Source: Raillietiella orientalis (taxonomy: Eukaryota). Taken from it: 64,000 nucleotides of DNA. The notes under the pieces are model-generated. The model did no database searches. It was not told where the DNA came from and was given only the letters and a program-made list of their open reading frames with translations. Below, in pieces: positions 42,401 through 64,000 of the stretch (position 1 is its first letter; the number at the start of each line of letters is the position of its first letter). The DNA lies in NCBI GenBank assembly GCA_036172245.1, contig JAYWIR010000060.1, positions 434,001 to 498,000 on the forward strand, in the 5' to 3' direction. Both the position numbers and the translations under genes were made by a program.

Positions 42401-42593
42401 TGGATCCATCTGTAGAAAGGCAAGTAATTAGCCACCTCCTCATATAGAAAGTGTGCATCCCGTAGTGGGTTAATTTCAGGACAAATTATTTCTTTGGTTA
42501 AGGAATGCTGTAGAAGAGCCTTCCAGATGCATCCGCAACGTCTGGTGGCTGCTATGTACAGCTGCAACATCACAGCCACGTCTGCTACTCTGG
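39435..42593 (+). CDS. EFL1: Elongation factor-like GTPase 1 (EFL1/Ria1), 3'-incomplete; exons 39435-39598, 39778-39857, 39942-40213, 40266-40471, 40516-40856, 40899-41086, 41130-41396, 41442-41568, 41618-42419, 42466-42593
   Basis: [114 protein letters not shown]. These are EFL1-type rather than EF-2-type. Ends at donor G|gtgagt (42594) with no downstream exon found. Confidence 0.95.
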
Positions 42594-43967
42594 GTGAGTA
42601 AACTGGCTTATGAGTGATTGCAACCTCTCCCACTCAACGTTTGGAATAACTTCTGTTCCCTGGTGGCGAGAATGCTTCTTTCTTTGATTACAAAGCATTC
42701 CATACACGAGCACGTTCTCTAGCTGTGCGTATAAGGGCGGTTCATGCTGGATTGGACCTTCTACTATGCCTTGAGACTTCTGGATACTAATGGTGATACG
42801 TTACCAATCAGCTTGTATCCAGGGCATTTACAAGTTATTAGGCTGCGTGACTTGCCCGTTTGTTTGTTTTGCATGGATAATATGGTCCAGTCTTTGGGAT
42901 ACTTGCAGGCAGGAATTTCAGGATATTGTTCGCATGTCATGATGTGCGTTAAAGCCTTTTGAGGGAATGCAGCGCAATATCGTACAGGTAGTCGCATCAC
43001 TTACTTGTTGATTGTACTTTGTACGAATCTCAAGTGTCGGTTTAGCAAACGATCCTGCGAAACACGGTTTGGAAAACTTGGTCTCGCATTCGCAGAATTG
43101 TTGACTTTCATTGAAACGCTTATATGACACTCCACATACCTGTATTTTTTTTTTTTTTTGCAATTTAGCAATGACTTTACTGTGAAGAAGTACTCACTTC
43201 ATAACTCGAGCAGAACGGGAGACTGGCCTCTTTCGCCGTTTTGGGTTGCTTATCCTGGAATGGGAGAGAACACAGTGTGTAGGGTGCATGGCCGACCACC
43301 GTAGGCGTTCGCGCGCAATACAACGAGTCGTCGGGTGCGTGGTATGATCTTCCGAGTGGGTGCCCTTTGGTGTTACCCCCATGCATTGGCGGGGCAGCAG
43401 CAGCGGGCTCATTGCATTTTTGCCCGAAAGGCAGCGGGGGTCGTCCGACCGTTTCTTGTGACCACAGGAAGGTTGTTGCTGCTCGGTTTTTTTTTCCTTT
43501 TGACAAGCTGCCTCAGACAGCAGCGCCTTGTCTTACAAACACTGCTCGAAATCGCAAGTTATGGCTCCAGTCGCATGCGTGCTTCCTCGCGTGTACACCA
43601 CCCGTGTAGATTGTAGTCGGAACGTGCGTGTGTCTCATTTTTTCGTACACCGCCGCGTCTCCCCCCCTTCCCCAAGGGCCCCCGAATTTAGAAAACAAAA
43701 TGCCACTCACTACCGGGTTCTTCGTTTACAGTCTACACCGAACTCGTACGATGAATTCGCCATACCGTTTTAACACTGTGGTCAAAAACATCCCGTTCAC
43801 GTAGTATTGTACACATCCTGTGACAAAATTCGTCTTACCTGGTTTTCTTCAAACGCCGATAGCCAGTCAACTAAGCTGTGAACGTTTTTATTTGACATCG
43901 CCTTCGACAGATCTGATTGAACTCTGTGGGCGCAGACCACAAATAGAATGAAAGTAAAAAATTCCAT
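42585..43967 (-). CDS. Secreted Cys-rich two-domain Argos-like protein (~215 aa; resembles scoloptoxin-11-like family); exons 43839-43967, 43198-43254, 43005-43139, 42805-42955, 42585-42757/42760
   Basis: Signal-peptide-like MEFFTFILFVVCAHRVQS. Four frame-consistent GT-AG introns (584, 58, 49, 41-47 nt). Mature region LPFCSSYEVCGVSYKRFNESQQFCECETKFSKPC...TCEQYPEIPACKYPKDWTILSMQNKQTGKSRSLITCKCPGYKLI(E)GPIQHEPPLYAQLENVLVYGMLC has 10 Cys spaced like domains 1-2 of the argos gene in this window. TAG at 42585-42587. Confidence 0.88.
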
Positions 43968-44383
43968 GCTGATGAAGAAGATTTGATTCTGAAGAACTGA
44001 TATGTTACAACTGTGGAATTCATTTGCTGTGGGATGTAGAGCACGTCTTGTTTAAGTAGCATGCAATATAGACATAATGAAAGTGTCCACGGTGTAGAAA
44101 GTTTGACTGTCTATTTTCTTGTACGGGGAAAATAACCGAATGATTGCCGAATTGTATTCCTTTTCGTGTCCCTTCCAAAAAAGAAAGAGAAATTGAGATG
44201 AACCTGGTGGCAAAACAACGCGATGCTTGTAATGTGCAATTGAAAAAAAAAAAAAAAAAAAAAATAAGGCCAATTTCTCGTTTCCCTTTTGTACGGAAAT
44301 CTTGGATTTGGAGTTGTGTGCTTCCTGTTGTTCTCTGATTGTAATCTCTTTTCAGAGAAGAGTTCTAGATTAAGAGCAGAGGT

Positions 44384-44419
44384 TATACATATATATATAT
44401 ATAGTTATATATATATATA
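44384..44419. repeat. (TA)n microsatellite, interrupted
   Basis: tatacatatatatatatata-gt-tatatatatatata. Confidence 0.9.
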
Positions 44420-47400
44420 GTTTCGTAATGAGGCCGCGTTGGTTCTTTATGAAAGGTGCATTTCAGAAACAACTGCCAGTGTGTTGAAACCCATAAATTT
44501 TGTCGCCATGTATAAAAGAGATTATTGACAGAGCAGTGCTAATAATAAAGAATGTTCTAATAAAATGTGGTTTATTGGGGAATGAAGGAGCGAAGGAAGG
44601 TCCATGGAGTTGAGAAGCAAATTTAGGAAATCTTTTTTGTGGTATGGAAACACCAGAGAGCACACCACATTTCGATTTCTTTACCTTTTTTCGGCTTAGC
44701 CGTAGTCGCGACATGGTCAGTTTGATTTGCAAACGCTGGCCATGATCTTCTCCTGAACTGTTTTCCCAGCTGGGTCGGGATTTTAGGATCCTCGTCGATG
44801 TTGTTGGCTTCTTAGAAATTGCGTGTTTTCAGTGTGAGCGTCGGGACTTCCGGGTGCCCGTTGTTTGTGTGCAGCTCTGCAGCTGGTCACATCGCAGTCA
44901 GGCCTGTGATAAGAACACTACGTGTGCCTATTCAGGATTCACGGTACACGGTTGAGGTTTCGAGTGCTTTTCCGCAATGTAGGTCGTACAGTTTGCCAAT
45001 GTGCGCGACTGCCGTTCATCTGAAGAGAAGTATAGAATCCCATGGAGCGCTCCATGGAATTCAATTCAGCTTTTTGGTAGTCGCTCTGCTTGGCGATGAC
45101 TTGTTGTTCGAAAAACTTTGAAGGGAAAAAAAAAAAAAAAAAAAATGGTGCAAAAGTCAGGCTTCGGAAGGTGTTCAAAGTGCTGCACGGGAATCGTAAT
45201 TGGCGAATCGTAATTGATTGAACATGGATTCCGATTCCCAGAGGTGCTGGAATGTTCTGCAGCTCTTTGCAGCGCTTTCGACCGCGTCTTTGAATGCGTT
45301 TGGCAAATGGTTCAACAGATCGCCTTTGTGGCGCACAATTTTCACGTTGTCCGAGGAATGTGGAGAGACATTATCCGTACGGAAATGATCGCATGCAGAA
45401 TGTGACGTCGAAGTGGAGTGATCTGGAGATCCTCGTTTGGGCTTTTGCGTCTTCCGTTTGCTGGCCAACTTGGGAAGAATCCGAATCCAAGAAGGCAATC
45501 ATCTAATGCACGCGTCCTTGGATTTATTTTTGGCCCGCACACCTACAGTGTGGTTTAGCAGTAAATTTGCAAAAAATTGCTCCAAGCAGACGACCTTTGT
45601 GTTTATTATTCCCCTCGTTTGTTCCGAATCCACCAAGACCAAAAATTACAGCTCGTCATCCTTTTTGTTGGTTTGGTTTCGGTAACTCTTGACTGTGGTC
45701 ATCCCTGAGAGAGTGCCATCCCGACTTTCGCCCAATGCAGCGTGGGGAAATGTTATGGGAAACTGTAGAGGAATAGGGATCCTCCCATCATTGCGATTTC
45801 GGGTTTCCAAATTCGCGTTCCCATTGCGGCGTCGCGTGTTGCTTTGCGAGCAGCTGGGAGCAGCTGCAACCAGCAGTCCGAGGTCGCTGCCAAACCCTTG
45901 AGGATTTTCCTTGGTTTGCTTTCCAGACTTTGGACACGCAGCGCAAGCACTTGGAAAGGTGTGAGCAAAAAGTGGAAAGTCAGTTTCCTGACTTTTATCC
46001 TTATGCCACGCTTTCGCTGTGGCAATCGGGAATCCTTCGGGTTTCCGAGCAGCCAAAATTATCCGATGAGAACGAAATGATGCTCTGGGAAAATGCTGAT
46101 TATTTTTCTTCCTTTTTCCATTTTTTTTTTTTTTTTTATGTGCTGACTTAATGCCACTTGCGCTTTGAAGTGCCTTCTATCGGTATCTTCTCTGATGGGG
46201 CCGTGTGCAGATGAGCCTTCGGCTCGCCGATCGAATTCTAGCTCAGCGACTAGGCAGAAGCGACTAATTGCTGACGGCGATTAGGCGATTTGTGAATGGA
46301 AAATAAATAAATAAATGTAACCCGTCATTTGTCTGGCAGAGATATCCGGATTATCTGACGGGAAAACAAATTAGATCAAGTAATGCGAGGCTGCTAATCC
46401 TCCGAGGTTGGATTCGGTAACAAAGTCGTGCGTGTGTGCGTTTGGCCCTTAATGTAGGATTGCGAGGCTCGAGATGGACGGCACAAAAGTAGAATATCTA
46501 CTTCGATTCGGACTGGCTTCCTTTTTTCCACAGCTGTCTCTCCTTTTTTTGTATGCTCTTTGTAGACTGCTCTTTTGGTGTCCATTTTGATCCATTCTCG
46601 AGAATTTTCACATTCAGAGTACATCCGCCGCTTTCCGAAGAAAGGCCTTCCCTGAAGAAAATTGCGCGACTTGAAAAGGAGCGCTTCTGTGCTCGAGTCG
46701 CACCTGGAGACCCGGTTCCGTTTCCTCTGGAGCAATCTGCAGGATGACCCGGCGGAAGAATTTCCGAGTGCGGGATTGTGTGGGAGGATCTCACGCACCA
46801 ACTCGTTGCCTCCATGCCGTGGACGCTCGGCCGATCCGCCGCCGTCACCGATCCCGAGTGCTCGAGGGAGATGAAGGCCCAGGTGCAGATGGAGAAGCGT
46901 TCGGGACGTTTTCGTTGACTTGGGGGCAGCGTCCAGACAAGCACCGGGTTCTCCTCCTCGCCGTGGGGACACGAGCTTGCTCCTGGATTCCGGCGATCGC
47001 TTCTCCCGGATGGAATTGCGGGGCGCAGGCTGCTACGTTCAGGTGTTTCGGGCGATTTATGTGAATCACACCGGAGCGGAGTAATCATGGTAATCGGACC
47101 ATCATAAGAATCTCCGCGTTAGAATTCTAACAAGGCACTCTTGCACAATTTGCGAATGGTTAAGATGCGAGTCCGATCCCGAATTCGATAAAAGTGATTG
47201 ATTGGAATCGAGCGGACGAAAGCTGGGTTCCCGATTAGAAACGTGCTGCCGGTATGCACCGTGTACATTCGGAAAATCATTAAAAAAGCCAAGAGGGGGA
47301 GGGAGAGAAAGAAAAAAAAAAAGGCAGAGCAGACGAGCAAGGATTGCGAGCAGGAGGAAGCGAGCAATCCTCAGTCGTGGAGAACCAGCACAACTTCCCA

Positions 47401-47928
47401 AGAGGAGGTCGCCTGGTGACCAGCGAGCTCCCTGCCCGTTTCTTCGTTCGCATAGCGGGGATGGGTGACGTCGACTCCTGCGGTATTTTCAATCTGCAGT
47501 AAGCTCGAAGGGAAGAGATGGAGTGAGTGGGAAACTGATCCGTTAATTCGGTTGATTCCCAAGTGATCCCAGGCATGCCGAAAATGTGAAAAAGTCCCAT
47601 CATTAAAATTAAATTCAAAGAAGAGAAAGGAGAACGAAAGATTCCTCTCGTATTTTCGGATTTTTTTTTTTTTGTCTCCTCCTTTTCCTCCTTCTTCATA
47701 GGCTTGCCAGCACACTCTCATTTGTCGGATGTAAAATGGGAGACTTTTCTATTCTCATGAGGATCCAGCACATTTTGGACCGTCAGGTGGTGTACTGTAA
47801 CTTCCCTTCTGTTCTTTAAAGTATTCCCGTGGTCCGATTGCCTCGAATAGATGCATTCAGAATCGAAGATCAGTTGCTTCGTTGCTTCTGAATTACTCAA
47901 GCGGGGAGGTGTCTTCACAGTCCACTTC

Positions 47929-47964
47929 CATGCTAAATGTATCTCATGCTAAATGTATCTCATG
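47929..47964. repeat. 16-bp tandem duplication
   Basis: catgctaaatgtatct x2 + catg. Confidence 0.9.
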
Positions 47965-50900
47965 TTTCTTAACATGAAATACGAAGCTGACAAAAATGAG
48001 TTGCCATTCATTTAAAAGGGTTGAAAAAAAAAAGAAAAAAAAAAAAGGAGCAGCGGTAACTATTGAGGATAAACAAGAAATAGAAATCAATAATTTTAAA
48101 CACCGTGTAGTCTAGTGAGACGCAAAACTCGGTCCATATCTTGTCCGAGACCGCACTTGCGCGAATGGTCTCTTCGAAGCTCGCTGTTACTGAGGTGAGG
48201 TCTGCATGGGAACGTCCACACCGCTCTGGTCAGTGGGTCTGCTCTGACACGAAGTGCTCGGATACGCCCTACGCCAAATTCGGTTCCTGCGCGCCGCCAG
48301 CGGGCTGCAACGCTTTCCAGCATCTGGAAGAATGCGTGTGGCAAGCCTGCTGCTTCATTCCATGTCGTCCTCTTTGACGGAAGCGTTTCTGCCCGAGTGA
48401 TCGGAAACCGAGAGACGAAAGGAAGGGTCGACTTCCTGCTTACTTGCTGGGCCCGCAGGGACGAAAGCACGAAGTTCAAAGGGCATGGCGATGCTGCATA
48501 AATTCCGTTTGCTTTTCCGTAGCCTGCAGTTCCGTACACTAAACACTTCCAATATCTGGTGGGTAGAAGTGCTGTCGAAAGATCCTTTGAAAGATATGCC
48601 ACCAGCAGATACTCCAGTTCAGTGACTTTGAAGATGCCACACCCACGAATCGGATCCAAAGGAACTCGAGTTACCCAAACCCCTTGTCTGGGGATTCATC
48701 AGAACGAAAGCAGGATGCTCGCTAAAGGGCAGGTTTGTTTACGTGTTTGCAGTCGCAAGGCATCCTCGATCTGCTGGGCTTTTTCACATCCGCTGTTGCT
48801 TTTCCTGTCGATTTCCAACTTTGGCCCGTCTGCCCCTTGGTTCAATTGCATGTGGTCGTATGGGAACGTTCTAAGGGGACAGTTGATATGGACTCTTTTG
48901 ACTGGTTTGAAACGCGCTTCACCATGAGCGGACTCGAAATTTTTTCAACCTTGAATAGAAGAAACTGTTGTTACGCCTCGGAACAACCAGAATCAGGGTG
49001 GCAGAAAATTACCGTGGCAGCGTTTTAAACTCCCGCGATTGCGAGCGTTCGTGTTTCTGCCAAGGTTTGTCAGTTCTTTGAGCACAGAGGTGCCAGCTTT
49101 TGTCTCGAGCTATCCGTGAGTACACTTTGTGCACCTTGCTGTAGTTGACCATAGTATGCCACTTTGTTTGGAACCTCCCTCGAAGAAGTATAAAGGGAAC
49201 TCGAATTTGCCTTTACCAGCCGCTTGTAGGGAAATCGGTGCTTCTTCGTGAAAGCTGCAGTTTACGCGCACCTGAAAATATGGATTCTTCCGGTTGCATG
49301 GTTTCCGCCCGAAAGTCCCCGAGGTGGTGGTACACCTAGAATGATACTTCTGACAGGAGTGTAGGGGGGGTAAATAATAAGCCAAGTAAGAATGAGGTTT
49401 CTCAGCCCTGCGGTTGCAGACCACGGGTTCCCACTTTGCCTTCTCGATAGGCGTGGAAGCAGGTCGGGTCGCGTGACACCAGACGGCAGCTCCGAACAAA
49501 AGTGATAAGAGGTGGCTCGCGTCGTCACCACAGGTGTGTGCTATTTCATACCACCTACTTGGACCATGCAGTTCGTCCGGAGTGGTTCGGAGTAGTTCCT
49601 ATGAACGCGGGTGCATCTCCAGATGGTATTGGCCAAAGGCGAACCGATGTATGTGAAGAGAAACGTTTCCCCATCTTTCGAGCACTCGGAAAGTGTGCTA
49701 ATCGGATGTTGATTGATTTTTTTTTTCCATCGGCAATAACTCGATATTGCCAGACAGTGAGCTCTGAAAGGCCTTCTCGTATACTTGGAGCATTTTTGTC
49801 TCAAAAATGAGGAACGTGCTGACTCACGTGTCGAAGAGGGAAAATGGTCGGCGAAAGCGCGCAGATTCTTTCAGCGCAGGAGAGCTCGGTTTCCCAACAG
49901 CGCACCCAAGGTGGCTGTTGTTCTGCCCTCTACCAAATCGTGGAAGCAAGTGCCGGCCCGGGGGGTCCTTCACAACTTGGAAAGTGTACGTTCATGCAAG
50001 CCCATCCCTGTCCAGCGAAGCGACAGTACTTTCGATGCCTCGGGCTGTTCCATCTTCCGCCTGCACGCTTCCTCCTCCTCTTCCTCCTTCGTTCGTGTTG
50101 TGCTGTGTTGCGCATCTTTTCAGTCGCAACACGAGCAAAAAAAGACTTGGTGGGAAGAGTTGCATGGGGGGGGGAGGGTTAGCGTTGTGCCCGGGTTTTT
50201 CCATGCGGAATGGCACCTCGATGAGGGAACGCGTGTGTGGTGGTGGTGGTGAATCGAGGCTCAGAACTCAGTGGTGCTGGCCAAAAAGAAAGAAAGAGAG
50301 AAAAAAGAAAATTCATAAGAAAGTTTCCCTTTTTCTTCTTTCCTTTTTTCTTTTTTTTCCTGTGAGCGGATATGAATTCCCGCTGCTTGCAAAGTGACGG
50401 CAGGTTCGCGTTCAGTTGCTGGAGTGAAGCTGCACGACCGAGAATGGGAACCAAAAGTAGTAGTTACCCATTATGTAAGACTGAATTTCACATCAGTAAA
50501 TTTTGTAATTTGCTCGCCCGCTCAGCATCTGTGCCGCCGCACACCGCTTGCTCCACTGTGGAAAGTGACTACCGAGGAAAGATAACACGTTGCTAAGCAG
50601 TGGAGGATGGCATTGCCGACGATCCTGAGCTCGAATCCATGTCGTACGCGTAATTCATTTTGGAGTTGGCGTGGCAGCAGCTTTCCTCCGCCCTAAGAGT
50701 GCAGTCCCCACTTGGTCGTATGGTGCTCTTCTTGGTCTTCGTTGTGCCTTTTCCTGAAGTATCGCGTAGTGGACCTCCAGTCCGCGGTGGCCGAGCATGG
50801 TTTTGACCCATTTCGTCACCTGTCGAAGAACCACTCGACATGCCGTGGTCCGAAATGGCTGTGAATTTTGTCGGCCCGACAAGCGCGTTCTCGAGGGGAG

Positions 50901-53900
50901 GGCGCAGCTGGTTACTTGGTGTGGACACTGTGTGCAAGTAGGGCTCCGGAGAGGAGCTCCCGTTTCGATGCAGAAGATGCGGTAGCCAGGATTGATTCAG
51001 CCATCTTCTTCCTCTTCTTTTTCTTCTTACGAATCGGAACTTTCTCTTGATTCAATGAACTGCTGCTACCTACTTAACTTTCTCTTTTCTGCTGGATCGG
51101 AATTCTCCCAGTGATATACATATTCCGTTGGATATGTAGAACAAAAATGTACCTATGCCAGTACGTAGTGTGTAATTTGGGGGCTCCAAGTTTCCTACAA
51201 ACGGTCGCTTTCCACTTTTCTGTGTCTTCATCTTTCGCCTAATAGTGAGTAAGACGAAGCGTCTGCTGTCGGTTTTTACTTTCACCACGCGGAGTGAAAG
51301 TTTTTAGCACACTTTAAGTTTTATCTTCAGCTCCAGTAATTGCTTGTTTTAGCTGCTTGTGTCTCCGTACTCGGTCCTGCCGTTCTTCCGGTGGAGCCTT
51401 CTCATTCGTGTGGCTTCCATTCTTTCCGTCCGGTTACCGACCTACGTAGCTCGTCCAGGGGCCGCCTTAATACGATACGTGTATATGTATGTAATAAACA
51501 TTTGTACTTATGTTTAAGATCGTTCAGGATCATTCGTATAAGCAAAGGAGGAAGCAAATGAAGATTGCACGAAGTGTAGGCAGCGGAGCGTAAAAAAGTG
51601 GATCAGTGGATGGTCCGAGGAAGAATTCCGCGAGGACGCGTTTGAATTCGAGCGAAGAGCAAACTGTTGAAGAGTTTCTGCTGCCGCATGCGCGGCGGCA
51701 GCACCAGGATCCGCGGAGGAGCAGATCTTCGCCAGAGGCGTGCTCGCGCAGAGATGCACGGATCCGACATTTGCATCCGGAGGTCGGACTTGACTCCCGG
51801 CTTTGGAACCTCCTCGGCGTCCCGAGAGGTCGTCCGAGACGTGCTGCGTCCTGGACGACCTCTCGGGCTGCCAAAGCCAAACGAATGGGCTCCTCGAGCT
51901 GATGGTATTCGGTCGGAGGAGAATCGGACTTTCAGTGTGCCTCTTGGTTTGCTCACGCGGTTTCTGTGGGGAGGGCGTTTTGTGCGAAGACGTGTTTATG
52001 TTGACATCCATTGTCTTGATCTGTGGAGAATACACTTCATCAAGTTTTTCATCTCACTAAAGATGTTACTCGAAGATGCTTCTTGATAATGCTGTGTACA
52101 GAAATCACGAACACCTTAAAACGAACATAAGCGGTTTTATTTCGAGGCCCGGGTGGGGGGGCATACTGAACTCGGTTATGGCTAACTCTCATAGGATGCT
52201 ACTTGTTGCTTTGGTTACTGCCGCTGTTTATCTGAAAGTGCACAGGGCGTTACTTGAGGCGAATGAAACGGGCATCTGATGTTTTCATCACGAAGAAGCT
52301 CATTCGCCATCTGCGTTCGCCACCATGTGCGAGTTCTCCCTGTATTGCCTTCGAGTGCTTACATCGGTAGATTCGAAGATATCCCATGTGGTTTCTATTC
52401 AGGAGGTTAGGGGAACACAGATCGATGCATCGGTTGTCCATATAGGAATTTATTTATTTATTTATTTGTCCCTACCTCCCCCCCCCCCTCGTGTTTGTCG
52501 CACGGTCGCAGTCCATGGAAGTTGCTTTGATCTCTGTGCCCGTGATTCTGCAGTCGATCGAGGAGAGTTCATTTGAGTTTGTTTTCATTTTGATGACGTT
52601 TCATTTTCAAATTCAGGTGGTTGCCATTACGAAATAGCGAGGTGTGTACCTTCGCGATTGCAAGGTTTTTCAGGGATTTAGAGTGGAATGCCGTAGCCTT
52701 TTCTTCCACAGTTTTCGAGGTCTGTCTCCACGGACTGCATGTCTTCCGACCTATACATCCGTATGCCAAGTTGTAATAGATGACAGACAAGGGATCCTTT
52801 CACCGATTACCGATGCCGTCATGCAGATAATATGTTGCCATTACCCCGTGCATCCGAAGGGAAGATTTCCGAAGTCAGGCAGTGTTTGCCTGTGCACAGA
52901 TGGTTGCTTTCGTTGCAGAGATGTACGAATGGCAAAGTCGTATAGCTGTCGATGCTTTTCGTGTCTCCGACTTCTAAACAGTTGGAATGGGGTCTGATCC
53001 CAGAAAAAGAGCTCGAGTGGTGAGGATAAAAAGCGGTGGCTGAAATAATTAAAACCTTTTGAGGTTACGAAATTTGACGGTGGCAAATGGCAGTTCGGGA
53101 GGCAGCAGAAGGATAATCAGAGAGAAAAGAATTTGAAGTAAAGGTTAGCAGCATTCAGCATACATAGGAAGCTTCGTGTTTTGAGTAATAGTTTTTTCTT
53201 TTTCGATTGCACGAAGGGGACTGAGTCTCCATTGCCATGGATTCACCACGGTATTATCTCAAATTAAAATACGATGCACTGACGTGATGGGTACTCTGTC
53301 AAATGTACAAAGCGGTATCGGAGATCTTACACGTGATTCATCCCGGTGTAATGGCTATTATTTACTGTACAAGGCCGTGTGCTTGCCTGCCGAGCATCCG
53401 GTTGCTTTCCACTCACTGCCGATGCTTCGAGATTCGCGTTTTCATTCTCAGTAGTTAGGCATCGGCGGAGGTTCACTTCGAAGTGCTGTTTCTGAGCCGA
53501 GAGCTGAATTTGCGGTCGATAATTGATCATTGATTCATGAGAATTGCGTTTCAGACAGACCATTTGCGGAGCCGATAGGGAACAGGTTTCTCTCATCGAA
53601 CTTCCAGGCGGCAACTTCGCCGATGACACGCCTTCGATTTTAGATGTAAACGTCTCCGGATCCCTCACGTTTGCTCTTGCAGGCTCCGGGCAGTTTGTGA
53701 TCTTGCCTGCGTTGAGATGCTCCCGGAAGCAGGATGATGCTTTACCTTATAGGTTGCGAACGAGCAACCTTTTTTCCCACGACGATCCCGCACATCCCAG
53801 CATCGGGGGAGATGGACGGAGGGGTTTCCGATGTTTTGCTTGCTCTGATGGTCCATCCCGAGATCCCTTCCCGCGCCGCAGCAGCTCGGACGGGTCGGTT

Positions 53901-54210
53901 TCTGGATCGGTTCGAGACGATTCGCTTTCCTTTGTTCGAAGGTTCCGATTTGCGATTTGTTTTGACAGACGCGCGGTGCGCAGGCACGCAGCGTGGACGC
54001 TGCCACTGTGGTAGAGAGGTATGCCACGCCAGACGTGCGCAACCATCCGCCGAATTTCAGGTCCGAAACTTTTTAAAACTTGCTGCTGTCGGTTATTTAA
54101 GAGGAATTTGACAAATTACTCCTTGGTTTGAGTAGCTTCCCTGTTTTTCTGGGATTTGCCAAGATTTCCTTATGGGGCTAGCTTAAGATTTTCTGAAAAT
54201 AAAACACTTT

Positions 54211-54229
54211 TGTGTGTGTGTGTGTGTGT
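54211..54229. repeat. (TG)n microsatellite
   Basis: (tg)9. Confidence 0.9.
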
Positions 54230-57200
54230 TCGAAGGAGGGAGAAATTGAGCGCATTTCACAGTCGGCTGCCTTCAGCGCTGACTTCGCTGGTTAGCATTT
54301 AGTGTACCTCGACACCGGGGTGTTATTTAATTGTCGTACAATCCAGAAAACGCGGAGGGTTTCGAAGGTGATCGCATCCCAAATTTGGGTGCTTTTCAGC
54401 CGAGTTTCCGAATCCCGTGAGTCCCTTGCTGCTTTTCCCGCGCGGGAACAGCGAGGTGGACTCGGTCATCAGATTGAGCCACATCATCTCTACCACGCAT
54501 ACGTGCAGGAAAAAGCACTGAAGAAGTGCAAGAACGGAAGCCTGCGTCCGTGTGCTTTCTTCATCCGTTCGGATCGTTGTGATGTAAGAGAACGCCGCCG
54601 GCGCTTCAGATGCTCTGTCTCTTCCGCATCTCCGTTTCTGCATTCCGTTCGTAGTTTCCCTGAGCGCGTGCCTTGGAAACTCTGTGCTCAAACAGGTTCG
54701 CTTTCCGCTTCTTCTTGTGCTGCACTTTCCTCGTCATCAGCAGCGCTTTTCTGCGGATGGTTCCTGCAGGTTCGGTCTGGGATTGCGGATTTTCTGTTCC
54801 GTTCCCGCGTGTGTGCGTTTCGTGGCTCCGGGAGTCCTTTCGGAGATTCCGGATGCGGTTGCTGAGAATCGCCGTCGCTGTGCAGCAAATCCAAAAGCTA
54901 TGGGCTGGTCCAAGAGGTGTGAGCCCTCAGTCGATACTTGAGGTCGCTGCAATCGGACCCTTGCTTTCGGAGGAGGGAGCACGTCCTCAGCGTACAGCAA
55001 GGCGGACTTTGGGCACTCCTTGCAAAAAGAGCCGTCTGTTCCGCCTATCGCGAAAAAGATGGAAGATGTAGAAAGTAGAGTGGTTCCTGCCTCTCTGGTG
55101 AACGATCTCTTTCGCGAACTGCTATTTTTCCGAAACCCAGTCTGCGAGCGAAGAATGCCGGGAAGGTTTGGGAGTGAGCTCTTATGTTGCTGCTGTCGTT
55201 TGGAGGATGGGTGCCGCAAAAGGTGAACGACAGGCATGTGGAAAAAGTTGAAAAGCAAAACACAGCGACGACACCAAGAACAACAACCGTACTTCCAGTA
55301 GTAAATAAGGCATTTGATGCTCATCAGCAATTTTTTCCGATTTGAACAGGGTGACAATTTTATCAAAATAATGATCATGACCATCCACGATTCCCGTTCG
55401 TGATTACTCATGGTGTTGGATCGTTCCGCAGCGGCATCCGAAGCGGCACAAATGCGCGGGAGAAAAAATAAGGTCCATTTGGGGGGAGCTTTCCGTTGCT
55501 GGCCATCTCGAAGCGGCGGATCCGTGTGCGTTTCGGATTCGAAACGTCGGAAACTGAGGCTGCCATGCCTCTCAACCGGTCGTGATCGGGCGCAGCATCT
55601 TCAGCACACGCTGTCTCCGTCTTTCCCCCTTGCGGCGTGCGCTCGCTGCACCGCGCATCTTCGCAGCGGTTCCTACGTATCTCGATTTTCCCGCGTCGCA
55701 GGTTCGTTTTGGTCCATCAACTTCAGGGAAAGAATTTCGGTTTCTGCCAGCCGAACCCGCGGTTCGGGGAATCCTTTCCGAGTGTCATTTCTGGCGATGT
55801 TTCGTTGCCGCTTTTTCCTGCTGAAGGCTCATGCGAATTGCGTTTGTCAGGTCACCGTCCGAGTAAGGCAAGCGGCGTTTGCTGGTGCTTTTCTCTTCCC
55901 TGTTTGGATTTCTTTCTGGGACTGTTGGAAATGTTTTTCCGTGAAGCTTGGAGGAGTCACTTCCCAACCTTCTGCCAAGAAACGAAGAGAAGGTTTTTTT
56001 TTTTCTTTTCTTTTTCGACGGAAAGCGGAAGTGGCTGGAAGCGGTTTCAGGCGTCCAGCCGCTGTTTGCCTGCCGTCGTTACCGTGGCAGCGTTTTCGTT
56101 CCGAGTAGTCTCCTGCCACGAGTCTCAGATCTTCCAAAAGGCGGTTCCCAACGGATGATCAGCCACTGGATTTTTTCCTGACCCTGGCTATTTGTTTGGA
56201 TATCGCTGTTCGGTAGACAAGCTCGCACTCCTTCTTGGTTCGCCTCTCTGCTATCTTGCAGGTGGACAGCGGCAGCTCAGGCAAGGGTAAACCATGTTTT
56301 TTTTTTTTTTTTTTTTACAAAGTCTGTCTGGCAATCCGTGTCCTTGTATCCATCCCTACGACCCTTCTCTTCCAACTGAATGATCTTTTCCTTTTTTTGT
56401 ACGTGTTGTGCGTGTGTGTGGGGAGGATTGGCCAGCTGACCTCAGATTTCATGTGGCTTTTGATTCCAGCGTGATTTCATTGCGCTTCTAGTGGTAGGAA
56501 GGGGTTCGTCTCAAATGCATTCTTCATCTGGACTACTTCCTGTTTCCGTACGCTCGTACGTGGTGTTTTACAAAGTTGTGATGTGCGTGCTTCTGGTCGT
56601 GTTCGGATGTGCTTGCGTGTACAGAGTCCCTGTACGTAGTCATGAACCTGTTCGCGCTTACATGCCACTGAATCTCTTCGCGTCTCCCCGATGAAATGCT
56701 GAACTCGTAAGCCAACCTGCATTTCCTTTTCGCCCAGGCCCCCTTTTCAGTCACACTGCAAACAATTTCGAGATCTTTTTGCTTCTTTCCTTCTCAGCTC
56801 TTAAGCCTTTTTCCCCCCTCTTTTCCTTCCTGCCCTACGATTACACCTGCATGCTGGACGTGCTCTTCTCCGATGTAGGTTTGCATAATCAGCTCTCATT
56901 GAAAATGTAATCCTTTGCTTACACACGCGTTACTGCAATCCCGTGTTTCGTCCAACAGAAAAAGAAGAAAAAAAAAAAAAGGCCCCATCTCTGTCTCCAG
57001 GAAGCCTCGTGTATCCATTGATTTGCAGGAATGCTTTCGGTTTGCTCATTTGCAAGCAGGAGTGCTGCTGTGGACATTTTGTTGTTTGTGGAAAAGAACT
57101 TTTCCCAAGCTGGGAGTGATTCCTCTGCTCGAGGGAGATCCAAAGAACCAACCGTTGGATTGCGCAAGTCCCTTGCAGCTCTCACAAAACTGCAGACTGC

Positions 57201-60200
57201 AGCGCCTTTGCCCGTCGTGCCCTCCGATGAAGGCCCAGGCTCTTCTGGAGCTCTCTGAGGCAACCGTCGCGAAACAGTAAACGTCCGTTATATCCACTGC
57301 CGGCTAGCAGAGATTTCGTTTCCGACTTTCCGAGCTTCCCACTCTCCAAAGTTTATAGCAAGCGGCAATTGAAATTCTTTTGCGTCAGCTGTTTGCAGGT
57401 CTACGCCCGTGCAAATGCCACACGGCAGTGCTCCTCGCGTCGGGAGGGGTCGAGACGTCATCGATCCCGATGGGAATTTCGACCCCCGTCCACGAAACCG
57501 ATTCGAAATTACGGAAATCGAATGGAACTCGTGCCCTTGACGCGAAAGAGTGATTCTAGGTGGTCAGCGTCGTTCGTGACGTTTCGTGGGTCCAGATCGA
57601 GATGGAGCGTTCCGCTGCGAACGCTCATTTTTGCCGTTCGACGGTTTCTTGAACGCTCCGCTGTAATGAGCTGAACGCTTGTCAGGACTGCTCTTCTCGG
57701 AGGAATGAGTCCTCCACTCCTCGTCCTCCAGCGCTTCACATAAATTAATCCGTTGGTTGCGGCTTCGGGAAAACACGGATGTATTTTGGGTTGCAAAGAC
57801 TTGTCTTCGCCCGAGGTTTCGGAGTGCCTACCCCCTTTTTGCTTCCCTTTGTCTCCGCGTATCGACGTGGGATGGAGACGTAAATCCTCGTTTCTCTGCG
57901 AGGGCGCTCTTTCCCGCTCATATGGTGAGGCAGGAAGATCCAAGGGACTCTTTCAGGTTCCGATGAGAAACCGTGTTTTGGCAAATTGACAATCACCCGT
58001 TTCGTCCCAAGTTGAGATTTCGGAGGAGGATTTTCGACGCCCTCCTCACAATTTCGCACTTTTTATTTTTGTGAATTTCGCAGTCCTTTTCCGTTTCGCT
58101 TGCCAGTCACGTGGATGGTTCCCGGCTATAAGTTCATAGACGTCACTTAGGCAACGCCTCGTTATCTTCACGTGGGAAAATATGTGGCTCCCTTTTCCTC
58201 GAGGTTTATCCTCGGGATTCGCTACAATAGTTCCGTGTCAGAGCAATGCCCTTCTCTATGCAAAGTGCTTTCGCTCTCGCGAAACGACGAACAGCGGACA
58301 AACAAGTTCGATTGCCTCTTCCTGTTGAGCTGCCTCGGTGCCCGCTTGCGGCAACCGTCCCTCGAGGAAAGTCCCTTCGGTTTCCCTGAAATTCTGCCGA
58401 GCGGGTTCGGCTGCGGAACGGTCCCTTCTGGACCACGTCTGGAATTGTTTGTTTGGAAGCAGCGGAATCTGGATCGCTTGGCTAGATAGAGATGATGCCC
58501 GTTTTTCCTTCCTCGTCGCTCGTTTTGGGTGCGCACAGTGGCTGCGTGCGCGTCTCTCCTCGGCTTCCCTCTGGCCATCCGTTCGTCTTCGGATGGAGTT
58601 GCAGCTTCAACGCCTCGTTACGAGGAACGATGGATGCGGAAGCACTCGCGTGCCAAATGCCGCCAAGGCACGTGTAGAGCAAGTGTGCCGGTTCGCTCGC
58701 AAACAAATGGGACGACGTGATTCCAGATTCACACCGTCGACTTGTGGACGCTTTTTGCTGTTTCTCGGGGACGCTGCTGTACCGATTCCCGGATGGATTC
58801 GAGAAGCATCAGCTCAAATATGCGAACAGCGACCACAGGCGTGAGCGTATTTCTTCGGCATCGCACCATTCGTCGAAGAGGAGTAACTCGTCGCGCGTCT
58901 TGTGTTTGCTGGGGGGCAGAAGTAACGAAAGTCGAGAACCTTCCTTTGCTTGCTGGATGTGCAAGGCGGAGGACCTGTTGATATCGGATCAGCTCAGACG
59001 CTGCGGACGCTCAGAAAAACAAACGTTTAACGCAAACACCATTTATCCGCTTTGGTCAAACGGTTCCTTTAACGTCTTGCGAAAACAGAAACGACTGAAG
59101 CGTCTTTTTACGGAGACCACAGTACGAGCAGCATAGACTCGAAAACAAAAGCCCGGGTCGTCTTTTCTCACAGATCCACTGCATTTTTTTTTTTAAAAAA
59201 AAAAACAAAACAAAACAAAAAACAAAAATGTTTGCACTTGATAGGCACGTGCAGTGATGCCGTTGTACACGTAACTTCCGAAGTGCAGAAAGTACAATCG
59301 TGAGGCTGAGCAGCCGCTATCCGATGCAAAGAGCTTTCGATCGTGGCGATGAAACCTCCTCCGAGCCTGGTCACTTTGCTCTGGACCGTTTCTCCGCCAA
59401 GAGGGAACGGGTTCGACACGAGCGGAGGGAAGCACTGCTGCGCCTTGCCTTCGTGTCTGCCTGCGCGGAGGGAACAAAGTGTCCGTGTTCACCGTCCGTG
59501 ATTCCCACCTGCACGCGGCTCTGCCTGTGCAGCGACGGCGGCGCTTGCCGTCGTCTTCGCCGGCTGCGTTTCGGGCACCGTAAGTAGGAGCGGCGTCTTC
59601 CTGCCTCCTCTTCCAGCAGGCTGCTTCTTTTTGTTTACCTTCGCGATGTTTGTGCGCGCGTGCTCCGTGCGGACTGTAACGTTTTTCCGTTTGAGAGGGG
59701 AAAGCGAAGCGGACCGAAGCACCGGAGCCGAACCGGTCAGCAGGAAGGGTCTCTTTTTCTTCCTGTGTCGTTGCCGAAAGTGTCGGAGAGTGGATTCCGC
59801 GGGAGCGCCGTACGCATCCGAGGTGCCAGGTTTTCGCAGGACTCCGGGAAGGAGCCGCCCGTCGTCCGTTCCTGGAATGGTGGCGGCGTGCTTCAAACCA
59901 AAGGACACTCGCACACCCGGAGCGAAATCGATGTATGCCGAGCGCGTGTCCGGCTTCCTCGTCCTCCCACTCGCGGTGTTTTGCGATCGAAAGGGAAGGA
60001 CGCGCTCCACGCGTTCCCGCTCACGTGGCGCTTCCCGCTTGCATTCATTGATGGCGCCGTGCGATGCCATTCGCCGCACCCATTGAGACCTTTCCGGCGT
60101 TCCCTTGGGTGGTGGCGTCCGCATTGTTCCCGTGCGCCGGGGGGGTTTCAAGGCTGAGCGGACGAGCCGCTGGGGTGGATTCGGGGCTTCGGTACTTTCA

Positions 60201-61031
60201 CGCCTTTCCGTTTTTCGTCACTTCGTTTACCGACTCTCTGCCACATTTTCGAGATGACCGCATCTCCGTTCGTATCGTGCGAGCGCCAACGGCTCTTTTT
60301 CCCCTTCCCCCTTCCTTCCTTTCATCGATGCAGTTCCGTGGGTGGATCCGCGCGCTCTGGGGTCAGCCTTGCTGGAATTCCAGCTCGGCCTGATGGGTCT
60401 CCGCGAGTCTTGGACCAGGTTGCAGCAACAGCACGTTTCGCCAGCGCGCACCGCCGCATCACGCGAGAGGCCGATCGGAAGCTGGGATGAAATTCCCGGC
60501 AACCGCTGTACCGCGTTCCGTGTCTTTACGTGTCCGCCCAACTTACTGGGTGTTTTCCTTCTTTGTCAACAACAGATAGGGAAGCACTTTTTGCCGCTTT
60601 CGGAATTCGGGTTGTTCACATTCAAAAAGTGCTCCACGAGTATTTTGTCAGAGCACAGCATCCTTGAGAGAAATTCGCATGGCAGCTCCCCAGGACATCC
60701 TGTAATTTTCTCATTAGGCGCGTGTGCATCTTTCCGCTGTATCCTTCTTTGAGCAGTGCATTTGGAGATGAATACTCATCTTTCCGAGGAACATAGGCGT
60801 GGTGCTTGCCTGATACCGCTCTCCGGCGGATTGTCTGCTGCCGTGGCCGCCTGATCTCCATCGTTTAGAAGTGAGCCACGTTCTCGTACAGACTCAAATA
60901 CACGCAGTAGGTACGCACATTCCCCCACACTGTATTTTCTACATCATTATTTTACACTTCAGACAGTTTCTTTTTCGGAAAGGTGGAAAGTTCTCCACAG
61001 AATTCTCTCGTCACAAAAACAAAAACAAACA

Positions 61032-61033
<2 letters not shown>

Positions 61034-61063
<30 letters not shown>
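61034..61063. repeat. (CA)n microsatellite
   Basis: (ca)15. Confidence 0.9.
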
Positions 61064-61071
<8 letters not shown>

Positions 61072-61503
61072 TCCTTGCAGTGCTTCGTTGTCCAATGTTT
61101 CATCCTCTTGCGTACAGAAAGTGTACAGAGGCGCGTACCGCGCGCGTTTGTCTGTCTGTCTCGCGTGAGGTTTTCCCTCTTTTGAGTCTTTCCTTTCCAA
61201 ACGTCGTGCGGCATTCGTTTGGTTCCGCCCGTGGAAGAACGTGCCGAACCAGCCGCCCGGTTCCTCCAGAACCGGGCCTGGAAAGTTGGTTCCGCGGTTC
61301 CCTACGACGTGCTCGGCAGGGGTCACGCAGGAGTGGGGAGTGGGGGAGGGGGGAAAGGGAGGGAGGGTTTCTGGGACTTCTCTCATGACTAGGGATCGTG
61401 TCGCCGCGTTTTCATCTTCTCTTGCCCGCGGCACACGGATGCACGTTTGCCCGTTCCTTAGACGATGGATGCATTTGGCTCCGAACTAATGACGTTGCGC
61501 CGG

Positions 61504-62595
61504 TCACGAACAGTATCCGCTGTATGTCCTGATCATTTCTTCCGCGTAATGCTTTCCCATTTCTGCAAGCAGGACACCGTCTTCGGCGTGGTGCCTCGGG
61601 CAGTGATTTCCTGGAGCACACTGACAAAGTGAATTCATGTTCACTTCCTCCACCTCGTGGCGTTTCTTGACAGTGAAAAGGCGGCACGGTTGCTTTCGGA
61701 GGCAACGTAATTTCTGCAAAATATGGAATGAATTTCTTTCTTTTTTTTTCTTTTACACGGAATTGCTTTCAAGTGTTGGTTTGGGAGGTCAGCATTCTAA
61801 TGTGAATTTTATTTTGATTATATTATCGTATGCTGAACATCCATGAACCAACCGTTTCGTTCCAAACCCAATCATTTTTCTCTCAAATAGAACGTGTTCG
61901 ATTAAAACGGCAACCCGGCTTCGTAATCAAGGACTTCGTGATTCCAATCGAATTTATTATCATTATCATTATCATTATTATTGTTTTTACAAGTGCTTTT
62001 CGGACTATGGACCGACCGGATGTACCGAGCGATGGCGGAACTTCCTCTCACAAACACATTTTTGCCGTCGTTATATAAATAATGAAAAATTTCGATCTCG
62101 AACTGCTTCAAGAAATGTGCCCATTCCGTGTTCCCACATTTCAATCTCCACTTACGTGTGCAGTTTGAGGCGAGCACGCGAAGGAGAATTCGTTGATGGT
62201 TCCCGCATTCGTGATGATGGCACTTCTTTTCACGATGTAAGCCACGGAGTTCTTCGGACACCGACAGTGCACGGTTTGCTGCGTCGTCGTGTTGTCGGAG
62301 AAAGCGTAGTACGTCCACGTGATGTCGTAGAAATATCTGCATTTGGGCAGGCGATCCACGGGCTCGCAGACCTAAGGAAGAAGCGGTGGTGCCGCCCGTG
62401 CACCAGGATGCCGGGGATCACCTTGTAAATACGTGTTTTGTCAGGGATGCTGTAGCCGTCCTGAACGTCTAAGGACGAAGAACACTTGCGGCTCTCGTCG
62501 CATCTGCATTGCTTCTCGATCCATGGCCTGTCGTAGTTGTCGATCTTGTTGCAGACTTGGCGGGGCATGCAAAGTGGAAGGTCACCTTCCGTTTG
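61504..62595 (-). CDS. aos: Argos / giant-lens (secreted EGF-ligand antagonist), 5'-incomplete; exons 62422-62595, 62156-62371, 61504-61713
   Basis: DLPLCMPRQVCNKIDNYDRPWIEKQCRC...CSSSLDVQDGYSIPDKTRIYK|VCEPVDRLPKCRYFYDITW...VHCRCPKNSVAY...FACSP|KLRCLRKQPCRLFTVKKR...EVNMNSLCQC...CPRHH...IRTYSGYCS*. This matches Drosophila Argos motifs (PWIERQCRC, DKTRHYK, VHCRCPRNS, RKQPCKLFTVRKR, TYSGYC); 16 Cys. The signal-peptide exon was not found in the window. Confidence 0.95.
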
Positions 62596-64000
62596 CTGGA
62601 ATGGAAAAGAAGAGCGACCGGTGATGCTGTCAACCTTGGTGCCTGGTTGCAGTGGGAACCTCCATTAAAACAACCTTGGGCAGGGGTGCGTGCGTGTGTG
62701 TTTGAAACAGCCTGCCTGCTGTGTATTGGGTATAATTATCAAACCGCTCAATCAATGTACAAAAAAGTGCGCGAGATTATGAAAATCAGAGGAGAACTGG
62801 ACTGCAGGGGTGCACGTCTGCTTTTCTGTTTATTTATCATTGGAGTTACTTGAAGAAATGGGTAGAAATCGTTCCTCATCATTATTTTATCAGTGCACTG
62901 GCAGCATGGCATGATTGCTCAATCCACGGTGTTCCCCCCTCCCCTTTTTTTCCCTCCCCCTTCCCCCAGGTGGAAAGTGTGCGTTGAAAGGTGTTGGCGG
63001 ATTGGCCTTTGGCATAAGGGAAGATTGCACGGAGGAGTGCACGAATTTTGCGCTTTTCACAATATTTTTTTAACGAAACAAGGTTTTACCTTTTTTAAAA
63101 AAAAATAAAAATATATATATATATAAATCTGTCTCGTTGTTCGATCACCAGCCTGTTGACTGCGTTCCTGTTCCCGAAAAAGCGTTTTCGTAATGGTTCT
63201 GTCGGGTGTGAGCGATTTCACATGGGACCAGCGTGGGATGCTTCTCGCGTTCATCTCTTTTGCATCCACTGCGAGGTCGAAACGCGCATTCCCTGAAGGG
63301 CCGGTTGATCTTTCTGTGGAATAGAAAAATGGTCCAGCTCTTCGCGCGCTGTGTTGAACGGATCGGTTCCAGTAGTTTCGTGGAGTTGAAGGTATACAAT
63401 ATTTTATCACGCATTTTTCCTTTCTCGGCCGCGCTGATGTACTCGAGCGGAATGTTTGCTTCAAAGACAACAGCTCCAGGCTTTCAGGAATTCATCTCGG
63501 TGCAAGTGATGGTTGAAATAACCATGGAGATCTCTAGTCATTACCAAGAGGCGCGAACGGGAATGCGTGTAAAAACCTGCTTATTAAGCCGAAGAGAAAT
63601 TGCGGCTCATGGAACGCCCATCCTTGTGTTGTGCACACTCGGTATATAGTGTTGCCGAGAACGCAGGAAAATGGTCCATTACTGGATGCGAGCACGGCTG
63701 CCCATCCTCTCAGCAGGCAGGGTGCCTCTCGTTCATCCGTGAAAAGTGAAGCAGATTTTTCGCATTCCTTTCCTGTCCTTTGATGCAGCAAGGATGAAAA
63801 CTTGCGCACGGCGGCGGTCGCAGTTTTTTCCGACCTTTCGTCGAGCCACATCTGCTGCAACCACGGCCTGGACGTCGCCGTAGCAACGTGTGCTAACAGT
63901 GGATGCTTTGGTTTGCCTTTTTCCACAAAAAAGGTGCCTTTTAGAATCGCATCTGTCTCAGCCCTGCCGCGAATGTTCGCCCACACGAAAGTGTTGGGGC

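What the first reader, a model, noticed from the sequence alone, without database searches (positions are those of the whole stretch)
42585..43967. Hidden two-domain Argos paralogue: a candidate second ligand-trap paired with argos
Seen: five short exons splice into a signal-peptide protein. Its 10 cysteines and linking motifs (LPxC-x5-C...CxC...C...CE-x4-[IL]PxC...W[TS]...CxCP...C) parallel domains 1-2 of the argos gene 17.5 kb away on the same strand. It lacks domain 3 and ends instead in RKK plus a short tail (VEWERLQSLI). Known: Drosophila Argos has three three-finger-like domains and sequesters the EGF ligand Spitz mainly between domains 2 and 3. From memory the sequence also resembles arthropod proteins labelled scoloptoxin-11-like (unverified). 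Inference: an ancient tandem duplicate forming an argos/argos-like pair that may trap a different growth factor, act as a dimer, or be a secreted effector.
Basis: partly seen in the sequence, partly recalled or inferred. Interest (0 to 1): 0.8.

Follow-up and report, generated by a model that had tools for sequence, protein, structure and literature searches.

The report
Argos-like dsx-c73A orthologue beside argos
This is a real five-exon gene for a small secreted, cysteine-rich protein, the counterpart of the fruit-fly gene dsx-c73A: a two-domain relative of the growth-factor trap Argos that lies next to argos itself, but the family and its Argos-like fold are already in print, so it is a sound yet fairly ordinary find.

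Summary
On the minus strand, 43967-42585, five GT-AG exons encode a 215-aa protein with an N-terminal hydrophobic leader and 10 further cysteines. I moved one splice junction (exon 4/5). Exon 4 alone finds 127 relatives. A profile of 50 relatives matches the spliced protein at 144.8 bits across exons 2-5.

The family is Drosophila dsx-c73A (doublesex cognate 73A): 16 of 120 listed relatives carry that name. It equals the two-domain 'Cluster D' of Argos-like '2FTX' proteins of Khilji et al. 2025. Homology to Argos domains 1-2 is shown three ways:
- profile against PDB, E 2e-6;
- hhalign, 96.3%;
- model of a mite homologue against Argos, Z 15.4.

No third domain exists.

True argos lies 17.5 kb upstream on the same strand. 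A bee fusion model and hymenopteran locus tags suggest the linkage is old.

The ligand-trap idea is untested. By citation, fly Dsx-c73a is a secreted apical-matrix protein of cuticle-making cells. The 'scoloptoxin-11' label belongs to other, three-domain clusters.

Verdict: new member of a known kind; interest about 0.3.

The parts
43839..43967 (-). Exon 1: ATG and hydrophobic leader (putative 18-aa signal peptide) plus a variable N-terminal stretch; ends at donor gtaaga
   Evidence: No homology support (2.8 bits against the family profile). The leader was judged by eye only.
43198..43254 (-). Exon 2 (19 aa): carries the LPxC start of domain 1; strong acceptor (ttctctcccattccag) and donor gtgagt
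   Evidence: Together with exon 3 it scores 32.9 bits against the family profile.
43005..43139 (-). Exon 3 (45 aa): rest of domain 1 (VC...CxC...C); donor gtaagt
42805..42955 (-). Exon 4: first part of domain 2 (TCE...PAC...DW...CKCP); revised phase-1 donor G|GTAACG
   Evidence: The intron position is shared with relatives: 69 of 127 representatives read through at this exact point.
42585..42760 (-). Exon 5 with stop TAG (42587-42585): EGP...YGMLC end of domain 2, basic linker (RKKHSRH), conserved tail helix motif (VEWERL...)
   Evidence: (34.4 bits alone). Its last 9 nt overlap, antisense, the end of an EFL1-like exon on the plus strand.
61504..62664 (-). True argos, three coding exons seen: ..62664-62422 (D1; 5' end open), 62371-62156 (D2), 61713-61507 plus stop (D3)
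   Evidence: PDB Argos 3c9a at E 8.8e-21. Pfam PF11581 at 1.6e-25 and 3.6e-18. Exon borders.
43968..61503 (.). 17.5-kb spacer between argos and the candidate; no Pfam-supported coding sequence found on either strand
   Evidence: Plus-strand ORFs of >=30 aa were scanned over 42.4-63.1 kb. Minus-strand ORFs of >=36 aa were scanned over 44.0-60.6 kb, 150 of 160 ORFs. The only hit was one sub-threshold Serinc match.

Best explanation
The locus is an intact, strongly diverged orthologue of the arthropod gene dsx-c73A (doublesex cognate 73A, also called Dsc73).

Shown here. It encodes a leader peptide, a short variable stretch, and two disulfide-locked 'two-finger' domains homologous to Argos domains 1 and 2. 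After these come a basic linker and a short conserved C-terminal helix motif. There is no third domain. It lies directly downstream of argos on the same strand, as expected for an old tandem duplicate.

Inferred. The protein is secreted and works outside the cell as a small, rigid binding module. By analogy with the fly orthologue, it probably acts in the apical extracellular matrix of cuticle-forming epithelia. It probably does not clamp an EGF ligand as Argos does, because the clamp needs domain 3.
For: - Gene model: canonical splice sites and an open frame.
- Relatives: exon 4 finds 127 of them.
- Profile match: a profile of 50 relatives aligns to residues 48-193 of the spliced protein at 144.8 bits, without gaps at the junctions. 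Exons 2+3 and exon 5 score on their own at 32.9 and 34.4 bits.
- Conserved residues: 21 of 25 family-invariant residues are kept, including all 10 cysteines.
- Shared intron: the exon 4/5 intron position is shared, with 69 of 127 representatives reading through there.
- Names: 'dsx-c73A' or 'doublesex cognate 73A' appears and in 16 of 120 rows. All 13 named clusters of the 20 I looked up are arthropods.
- Published family: the 'Cluster D' representative in the supplement of Khilji et al. 2025 shows the same motifs.
- Argos homology: PDB profile search hits only Argos at E 2e-6, with the next hit at 0.72. hhalign gives 96.3%. In Foldseek the top 4 hits are all Argos chains, E 7e-7 to 4e-6. VIA gives Z 15.4 over Argos residues 107-349. 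Exon 4 against the window's own argos D2 exon gives 30% identity and E 5e-6.
- No domain 3.
- Fly orthologue: secreted, in trichome-forming epidermis, trachea and pharynx, with a suggested apical ECM role (passages).
Against: - No RNA evidence could be obtained.
- Exon 1 has no homology support, and the leader was not run through a predictor.
- The candidate sits on a very long branch (7.65). It has lost two invariant Q residues between the first two cysteines and keeps only 12 of 27 near-invariant positions. Changed or relaxed function cannot be excluded.
- The functional part rests on citations of Andrew and Baker 2008, which I could not read, and on transfer from Drosophila to an unplaced organism.
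- Exon 3 against the window's argos D1 exon is not significant pairwise.
Confidence: 0.85

Rival explanations
1. Second ligand trap. The two-domain protein sequesters a growth factor, either an EGF-family ligand or another. It would do so alone, as a dimer, or together with Argos.
For: - It shares ancestry and fold with Argos D1-D2.
- It has secreted-type architecture.
- It is linked to argos.
- Khilji et al. speculate that some protostome Argos-like proteins modulate EGFR signalling.
Against: - Domain 3 is absent.
- The same paper states that Spitz binding relies on domain 3. [quoted passage not shown]
- The fly orthologue is described by citation as an apical-matrix protein of cuticle-forming cells.
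Confidence: 0.1
2. Decaying or non-functional copy. The ORFs are a pseudogene remnant, or a by-product of sequence antisense to the EFL1-like gene.
For: - The branch is very long.
- Two invariant residues are lost.
- The 3' end overlaps an EFL1-like exon.
- There is no RNA evidence.
Against: - All five exons are open with canonical splice sites.
- All 10 cysteines and 21 of 25 invariant residues are kept.
- The tail motif is kept.
- The EFL1-like gene of the same window is also unusually diverged, at 31-47% identity to the best relatives. The long branch therefore fits a fast-evolving genome.
- Only 9 nt of the coding sequence overlap the EFL1 exon.
Confidence: 0.03
3. Venom-type or secreted effector of the scoloptoxin-11 kind.
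For: It belongs to the same superfamily as centipede venom proteins and the cone-snail toxin Tx33.1.
Against: - The scoloptoxin(11)-like names sit on three-domain clusters B and E, not on this family.
- None of the looked-up relatives carries the label.
- The family tree broadly follows arthropod groups with one copy per species, unlike an expanding toxin family.
Confidence: 0.02

Closest known systems
Drosophila dsx-c73A (doublesex cognate 73A; Dsc73) and its arthropod orthologues
   Same: It has the same architecture: leader, variable N-terminal stretch, two Cys-rich domains, basic linker and FPW-type tail. It keeps the 10 cysteines and 21 of 25 invariant residues. It shares intron positions and lies next to argos.
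   Different: It is much more diverged than any other member, at 31-43% identity to all 50 compared. It lacks the KPTKYHYYPHNQH motif that insects and crustaceans have upstream of domain 1. It has no RxxR in the linker, whereas 33 of 39 relatives have one. The gene is compact, with 44-58 nt introns.
Two-domain '2FTX' proteins, Cluster D of Khilji et al. 2025 (Protein Sci 34:e70333; PMC12514838)
   Same: The Cluster D representative, from the butterfly Battus philenor, shows the same family motifs. The paper already describes these proteins as two-domain, Argos-like and secretory.
   Different: The main text holds none of the words synteny, tandem, adjacent or neighbour. It does not use the name dsx-c73A, and that name is absent from the supplements I could search (one supplement was too large to read).
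Argos / giant-lens (Pfam PF11581; PDB 3C9A, 3CGU)
   Same: Domains 1 and 2 are homologous in sequence profile and in fold, through the last cysteine of domain 2. Both are secreted-type proteins. They are neighbours on the same strand in this window.
   Different: There is no domain 3, so no three-domain clamp. The Pfam score is below the gathering cut-off, at 18.8 bits for exon 4 and 24.0 bits for the best of 39 relatives, against 25. The intron positions differ from those of the window's argos. It has a conserved C-terminal helix motif that Argos lacks.
Scoloptoxin-11-like proteins (centipede venom; clusters B and E of Khilji et al.)
   Same: They belong to the same 2FTX superfamily and are secreted and cysteine-rich.
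   Different: They have three domains and fall in different sequence clusters. No direct sequence comparison was made here.
Conotoxin Tx33.1 (PDB 9FRQ)
   Same: It has a two-domain 2FTX fold. It is the fifth Foldseek hit (E 0.09) and scores VIA Z 7.0.
   Different: It is a far weaker match than Argos. It is a mollusc venom peptide of 124 residues with 12 cysteines.

Membership tests
dsx-c73A / Dsc73 family (= two-domain 2FTX Cluster D) | Full-length profile match over both domains and the tail | tested here: met
   144.8 bits, E 1.1e-46 (Z=1), residues 48-193. Exons not used to fetch the family score 32.9 and 34.4 bits.
dsx-c73A / Dsc73 family (= two-domain 2FTX Cluster D) | Ten conserved cysteines and the invariant residues of the family | tested here: met
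   21 of 25 invariant columns are kept, all 10 cysteines among them. 12 of 27 near-invariant columns are kept.
dsx-c73A / Dsc73 family (= two-domain 2FTX Cluster D) | N-terminal signal peptide | tested here: inconclusive
   The sequence shows M-E, about 11 hydrophobic residues, then V-Q-S before a charged stretch. No predictor was available, and exon 1 has no homology support.
dsx-c73A / Dsc73 family (= two-domain 2FTX Cluster D) | Two domains only, followed by a basic linker and a conserved C-terminal motif | tested here: met
   There is no domain 3-like exon downstream. The linker RKKHSRH and the tail VEWERL align with the family's FPW tail.
dsx-c73A / Dsc73 family (= two-domain 2FTX Cluster D) | Shared intron positions | tested here: met
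   The phase-1 intron after ...L-G is shared: 69 of 127 representatives read through there and 58 of 127 are spliced to xGP. The borders before VC... and before ALT... are suggested by fragment starts but were not counted rigorously.
dsx-c73A / Dsc73 family (= two-domain 2FTX Cluster D) | Secretion to the apical matrix of cuticle-forming cells, dependent on Shavenbaby | not testable with these tools
   Known only for Drosophila, and only by citation. The primary paper is not held.
Argos (Pfam PF11581, EGFR-ligand trap) | Pfam gathering score | tested here: not met
   Exon 4 scores 18.8 bits against a cut-off of 25. The best of 39 relatives scores 24.0 bits, and 19 of 39 match at E <= 1. None of the 102 dsx-c73A-type rows carries precomputed PF11581. 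The whole spliced protein could not be submitted.
Argos (Pfam PF11581, EGFR-ligand trap) | Three 2FTX domains forming a clamp | tested here: not met
   Only D1 and D2 are present. The structural alignment covers Argos residues 107-349 only. No D3 exon was found.
Argos (Pfam PF11581, EGFR-ligand trap) | Homology of D1-D2 | tested here: met
   E 2e-6; 96.3%; Z 15.4. The fold test used a mite homologue, not the window's protein.
Argos (Pfam PF11581, EGFR-ligand trap) | Binding of Spitz / EGF-domain ligand | not testable with these tools
Scoloptoxin-11-like (SLPTX11) | Three 2FTX domains; membership of the clusters that carry the label | tested here: not met
   The label sits on clusters B and E, while this family is Cluster D. 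The label is absent from all names seen. A direct alignment to a scoloptoxin-11 sequence was not made.

The most novel reading that the evidence does not exclude
argos and its domain-3-less paralogue dsx-c73A are an ancient tandem pair, kept together from this very diverged lineage to insects. The two-domain protein would be a matrix-resident partner in EGFR-ligand handling, not a mere structural cuticle protein. It might hold or present an EGF-type ligand in the apical matrix, or bind a different ligand through its D1-D2 surface and its conserved tail helix. That would link the Shavenbaby trichome programme to EGFR signalling.
Probability: 0.1. Interest if true: 0.7.

Novelty: new member of a known kind. 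Interest (0 to 1): 0.3.

Why it matters
The gene itself adds one very diverged member to a named but barely studied family.

Two things are modestly useful beyond that. First, three lines of evidence join up here. They are the fly gene dsx-c73A/Dsc73 (a secreted apical-matrix protein), the 2025 structural class of two-domain Argos-like proteins, and the physical linkage to argos. I did not find the linkage stated in the papers I could search. Second, if the linkage is as old as it looks, dsx-c73A arose by tandem duplication of an Argos-like gene followed by loss of domain 3. That gives a concrete, testable question in Drosophila: does Dsc73 touch EGFR ligands or Argos?

Tried and rejected
- RNA evidence: no RNA holder was listed for 42596-44000.
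- Own genome: none is held.
- Word-index search with exon 4 against longer proteins: none found. The full HMMER scan then found the family.
- Homodimer test (two copies of residues 31-203 of the mite homologue): no verdict, score 0.00.
- Hidden third domain: a C-x-C-[PAS] scan of the minus strand and Pfam on 89 minus-strand ORFs at 36.3-42.6 kb found nothing Argos-like.
- A further Argos-like gene between the pair: none found.
- C-terminal exons of the EFL1-like gene: not found by motif scan, Pfam or tblastn with four homologues.
- Pairwise BLASTP of exon 3 against the window's argos D1 exon: not significant.
- Andrew and Baker 2008: not held, by DOI or by PMC id.
- Literature searches that led nowhere: 'dsc73' was swamped by stock numbers, and 'argos'+'73A' gave nothing relevant. 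CG32159 appears in one paper as a gene of unknown function. That this number is dsx-c73A is only my recollection, so I did not use it.
- Earlier findings of the scan: nothing relevant.
- Tree placement of the candidate: unreliable because of its long branch.
The comparison was then made by window references.

Full report
**The observation**

The region 42585-43967 holds a minus-strand gene. Six-frame translation shows an ATG at 43967 followed by a hydrophobic leader.

All borders are canonical GT-AG. My first model joined exon 4 to exon 5 through a 53-nt intron. Relatives showed that the conserved stretch L-E-G-P-x-x-H was then lost. With a phase-1 donor (G|GTAACG) and an acceptor 14 nt further upstream, the stretch is restored.

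The final model is:
- exons 43967-43839, 43254-43198, 43139-43005, 42955-42805 and 42760-42588;
- stop TAG at 42587-42585;
- introns of 584, 58, 49 and 44 nt;
- a 215-aa protein with 10 cysteines after the 18-residue leader.

**Is it a real gene?**

No RNA run was listed for the stretch and no genome is held, so the test is comparative.
- Exon 4 (52 aa), scored against 1.84 billion representative proteins, gave 127 hits at E <= 0.001. The best was 2.6e-9, at 36-54% identity.
- Fifty of the 140 proteins then stored had both the domain-1 start motif and the domain-2 end motif. I cut these to the core and built a profile from them in the Python box. It aligns to residues 48-193 of the spliced protein at 144.8 bits, without gaps at the exon junctions.
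- Exons 2+3 and exon 5 played no part in fetching the family. They score 32.9 and 34.4 bits on their own. Exon 1 scores nothing.
- Added to a 39-sequence alignment (A1), the candidate keeps 21 of 25 invariant columns, including all 10 cysteines, and 12 of 27 near-invariant ones.
- Of the 127 representatives, 69 are unspliced gene calls that run on as 'L-G' plus unrelated residues exactly where my revised exon 4 ends. The other 58 are spliced to x-G-P. The phase-1 intron is therefore shared.
- The tail that looked like an odd appendage (VEWERL...) aligns with a conserved family motif, F-P-W-x-x-V.

**What family is it?**

Source names identify it.
- A mayfly member is 'uncharacterized protein dsx-c73A'.
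- In a second search, 16 of 120 listed rows are named 'doublesex cognate 73A', 'dsx-c73A' or 'Dsx-c73a'. They come from bees, ants, wasps, Tribolium, a cockroach, a katydid and a planthopper.
- Of 20 clusters looked up, 13 carry organism names, and all 13 are arthropods: insects, decapods, Artemia, a barnacle, a sea spider, a millipede, a mite and a spider. The other 7 are unnamed environmental or transcript records.
- A tree of 41 rows broadly follows arthropod groups. The candidate sits on by far the longest branch (7.65), so its place is unsure.
- The EFL1-like gene of the same window is also only 31-47% identical to its best relatives over 281 aa. The whole genome therefore seems fast-evolving or poorly sampled.

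**Relation to Argos**

- Exon 4 alone hits only Argos in the PDB (E 0.051) and only the Argos family in Pfam (E 0.0017, 18.8 bits, below the cut-off of 25).
- I left the two bee fusion models out of the family profile A1. That profile hits only Argos in the PDB, at E 2e-6 over chain residues 22-121. The next hit is at E 0.72.
- Profile against profile, with 17 hymenopteran Argos proteins (A2), gives 96.3% probability and E 1.6e-9 over 140 columns. The alignment runs from the LPxC start of domain 1 through the last cysteine of domain 2.
- I made an AlphaFold model of the mite homologue P0103 with A1 (mean pLDDT 79.7, core above 80). In Foldseek its four best matches are the four Argos chains, at E 7e-7 to 4e-6 and TM about 0.5. 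The cone-snail toxin Tx33.1 is fifth, at E 0.09.
- VIA-align gives Argos Z 15.4, rmsd 2.4 A, 124 residues, model residues 31-168 on Argos residues 107-349. Tx33.1 gives Z 7.0 and all other chains 2.3 or less.
- Within the window, exon 4 against the argos D2 exon gives 30% identity over 40 residues and E 5e-6. Exon 3 against the argos D1 exon is not significant pairwise.
- No member passes Pfam's Argos cut-off. 19 of 39 match at E <= 1, the best at 24.0 bits. None of the 102 dsx-c73A-type rows has a precomputed PF11581 hit.
- A third domain is absent. There is no C-x-C-P-type piece and no Pfam Argos hit in 89 minus-strand ORFs downstream. All relatives end the same way.

**What is already in print**

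Khilji et al. 2025 (PMC12514838; I read the abstract, section 2.7, passages and searchable supplements) describe about 1800 protostome 'two-finger toxin fold' proteins in 12 clusters.
- Clusters A and D are two-domain.
- The Cluster D representative printed in their supplement shows this family's motifs.
- The names 'U-scoloptoxin(11)-Sm6a-like' and 'kappa-scoloptoxin(11)-Ssd1b-like' stand on clusters B and E, which are three-domain.
- Their main text holds none of the words synteny, tandem, adjacent or neighbour. One supplement was too large to read.

dsx-c73A itself appears in 9 held papers, never in a title or abstract. Passages say that the protein is secreted. It is strongest in epidermal cells that form trichomes, and is also found in trachea and pharynx. 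It is suggested to be an apical matrix protein, and the passages list it under cuticle development, citing Andrew and Baker 2008. That paper is not held.

**The pairing with argos**

True argos is confirmed on the same strand: PDB E 8.8e-21 for the D1 exon, and Pfam 1.6e-25 and 3.6e-18 for the D2 and D3 exons. Its stop lies 17,537 nt upstream of the candidate's ATG. I found no Pfam-supported coding sequence between them on either strand.

Outside the window, three things point the same way.
- Two isoforms of one bee gene model join Argos D1-D2 exons to this family's exons at an exon border, with Argos first, as in the window. No second fusion was among the 120 rows.
- In Ampulex and Eciton the two genes have locus tags two apart, on a contig of the same length.

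The gene name places the fly gene at 73A. That argos also maps there is my recollection.

The intron positions of the two genes in the window differ. This fits an old, not a recent, duplication.

**How it most likely works**

Shown: the protein has a leader, two disulfide-locked domains of the Argos D1-D2 type, a basic linker and a short conserved helix. In the mite model this helix spans residues 183-193, with block pLDDT 88.

Inferred: it is secreted and acts extracellularly as a compact binding module. By transfer from the fly orthologue, this would be in the apical matrix of cuticle-forming epithelia. Argos-style capture of an EGF domain is unlikely without domain 3, a point also made for the two-domain toxins. 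A different binding mode is not excluded.

In 33 of 39 relatives the linker holds an R-x-x-R, though not in the candidate. A strict F-P-W tail pattern is found in 23 of 39. This raises the untested idea that the tail is released or regulated by a proprotein convertase.

**Verdict**

It is wrong on 'hidden' and on the scoloptoxin label, and it is unsupported on the trap function. The locus is a new, very diverged member of a known kind.

Noticed in passing
window 39447-42593 (+): An EFL1-like (elongation factor-like GTPase 1) gene. It aligns to residues 5-987 of a 1109-aa homologue, but the last 120 or so residues are found nowhere in the window. Its last visible exon ends at 42593 and overlaps the candidate's stop and last two codons antisense. 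Either the final exons lie beyond 64 kb, so that both Argos-type genes sit in a >21-kb intron, or the gene or assembly is truncated.
   Followed up: partly
window about 21000-36000: A sharp GC-rich block (GC 0.62-0.70) flanked by DNA of GC 0.35-0.43. It holds a myosin VI gene on the minus strand, at about 22.3-29.1 kb (Myosin_N, Myosin_head and Myosin-VI cargo-binding domain hits). The cause of the compositional jump is unexplained.
   Followed up: partly
P0026 and P0137 (bee, one gene, isoforms X3 and X1): Gene models that splice Argos D1-D2 exons onto dsx-c73A-type exons, skipping Argos domain 3. This is either read-through transcription between neighbours or a prediction artefact. Either way it shows argos immediately upstream on the same strand in a bee.
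   Followed up: partly
family alignment A1; candidate residues after the last cysteine (exon 5, 42588-42690): Nearly all relatives have a basic linker after domain 2, with R-x-x-R in 33 of 39. Many then have a conserved F-P-W-x-x-V helix. This could be a convertase-processed or regulatory tail. I found no mention of it in the papers I read.
   Followed up: partly
window 43968-61503: 17.5 kb between argos and the candidate with no Pfam-detectable coding sequence on either strand. This is long for a genome whose introns here are 44-58 nt. It might be regulatory DNA shared by the pair, or unrecognised repeats.
   Followed up: partly
window 9851-10524 (-): Two ORFs that by eye look like ribosomal protein S6 exons. 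Not tested with any tool.
   Followed up: no
window 42379-42384: An AATAAA on the minus strand, 201 nt downstream of the candidate's stop and inside an EFL1-like coding exon. It is a possible poly(A) signal. It is noted from the sequence only and carries no evidential weight.
   Followed up: no
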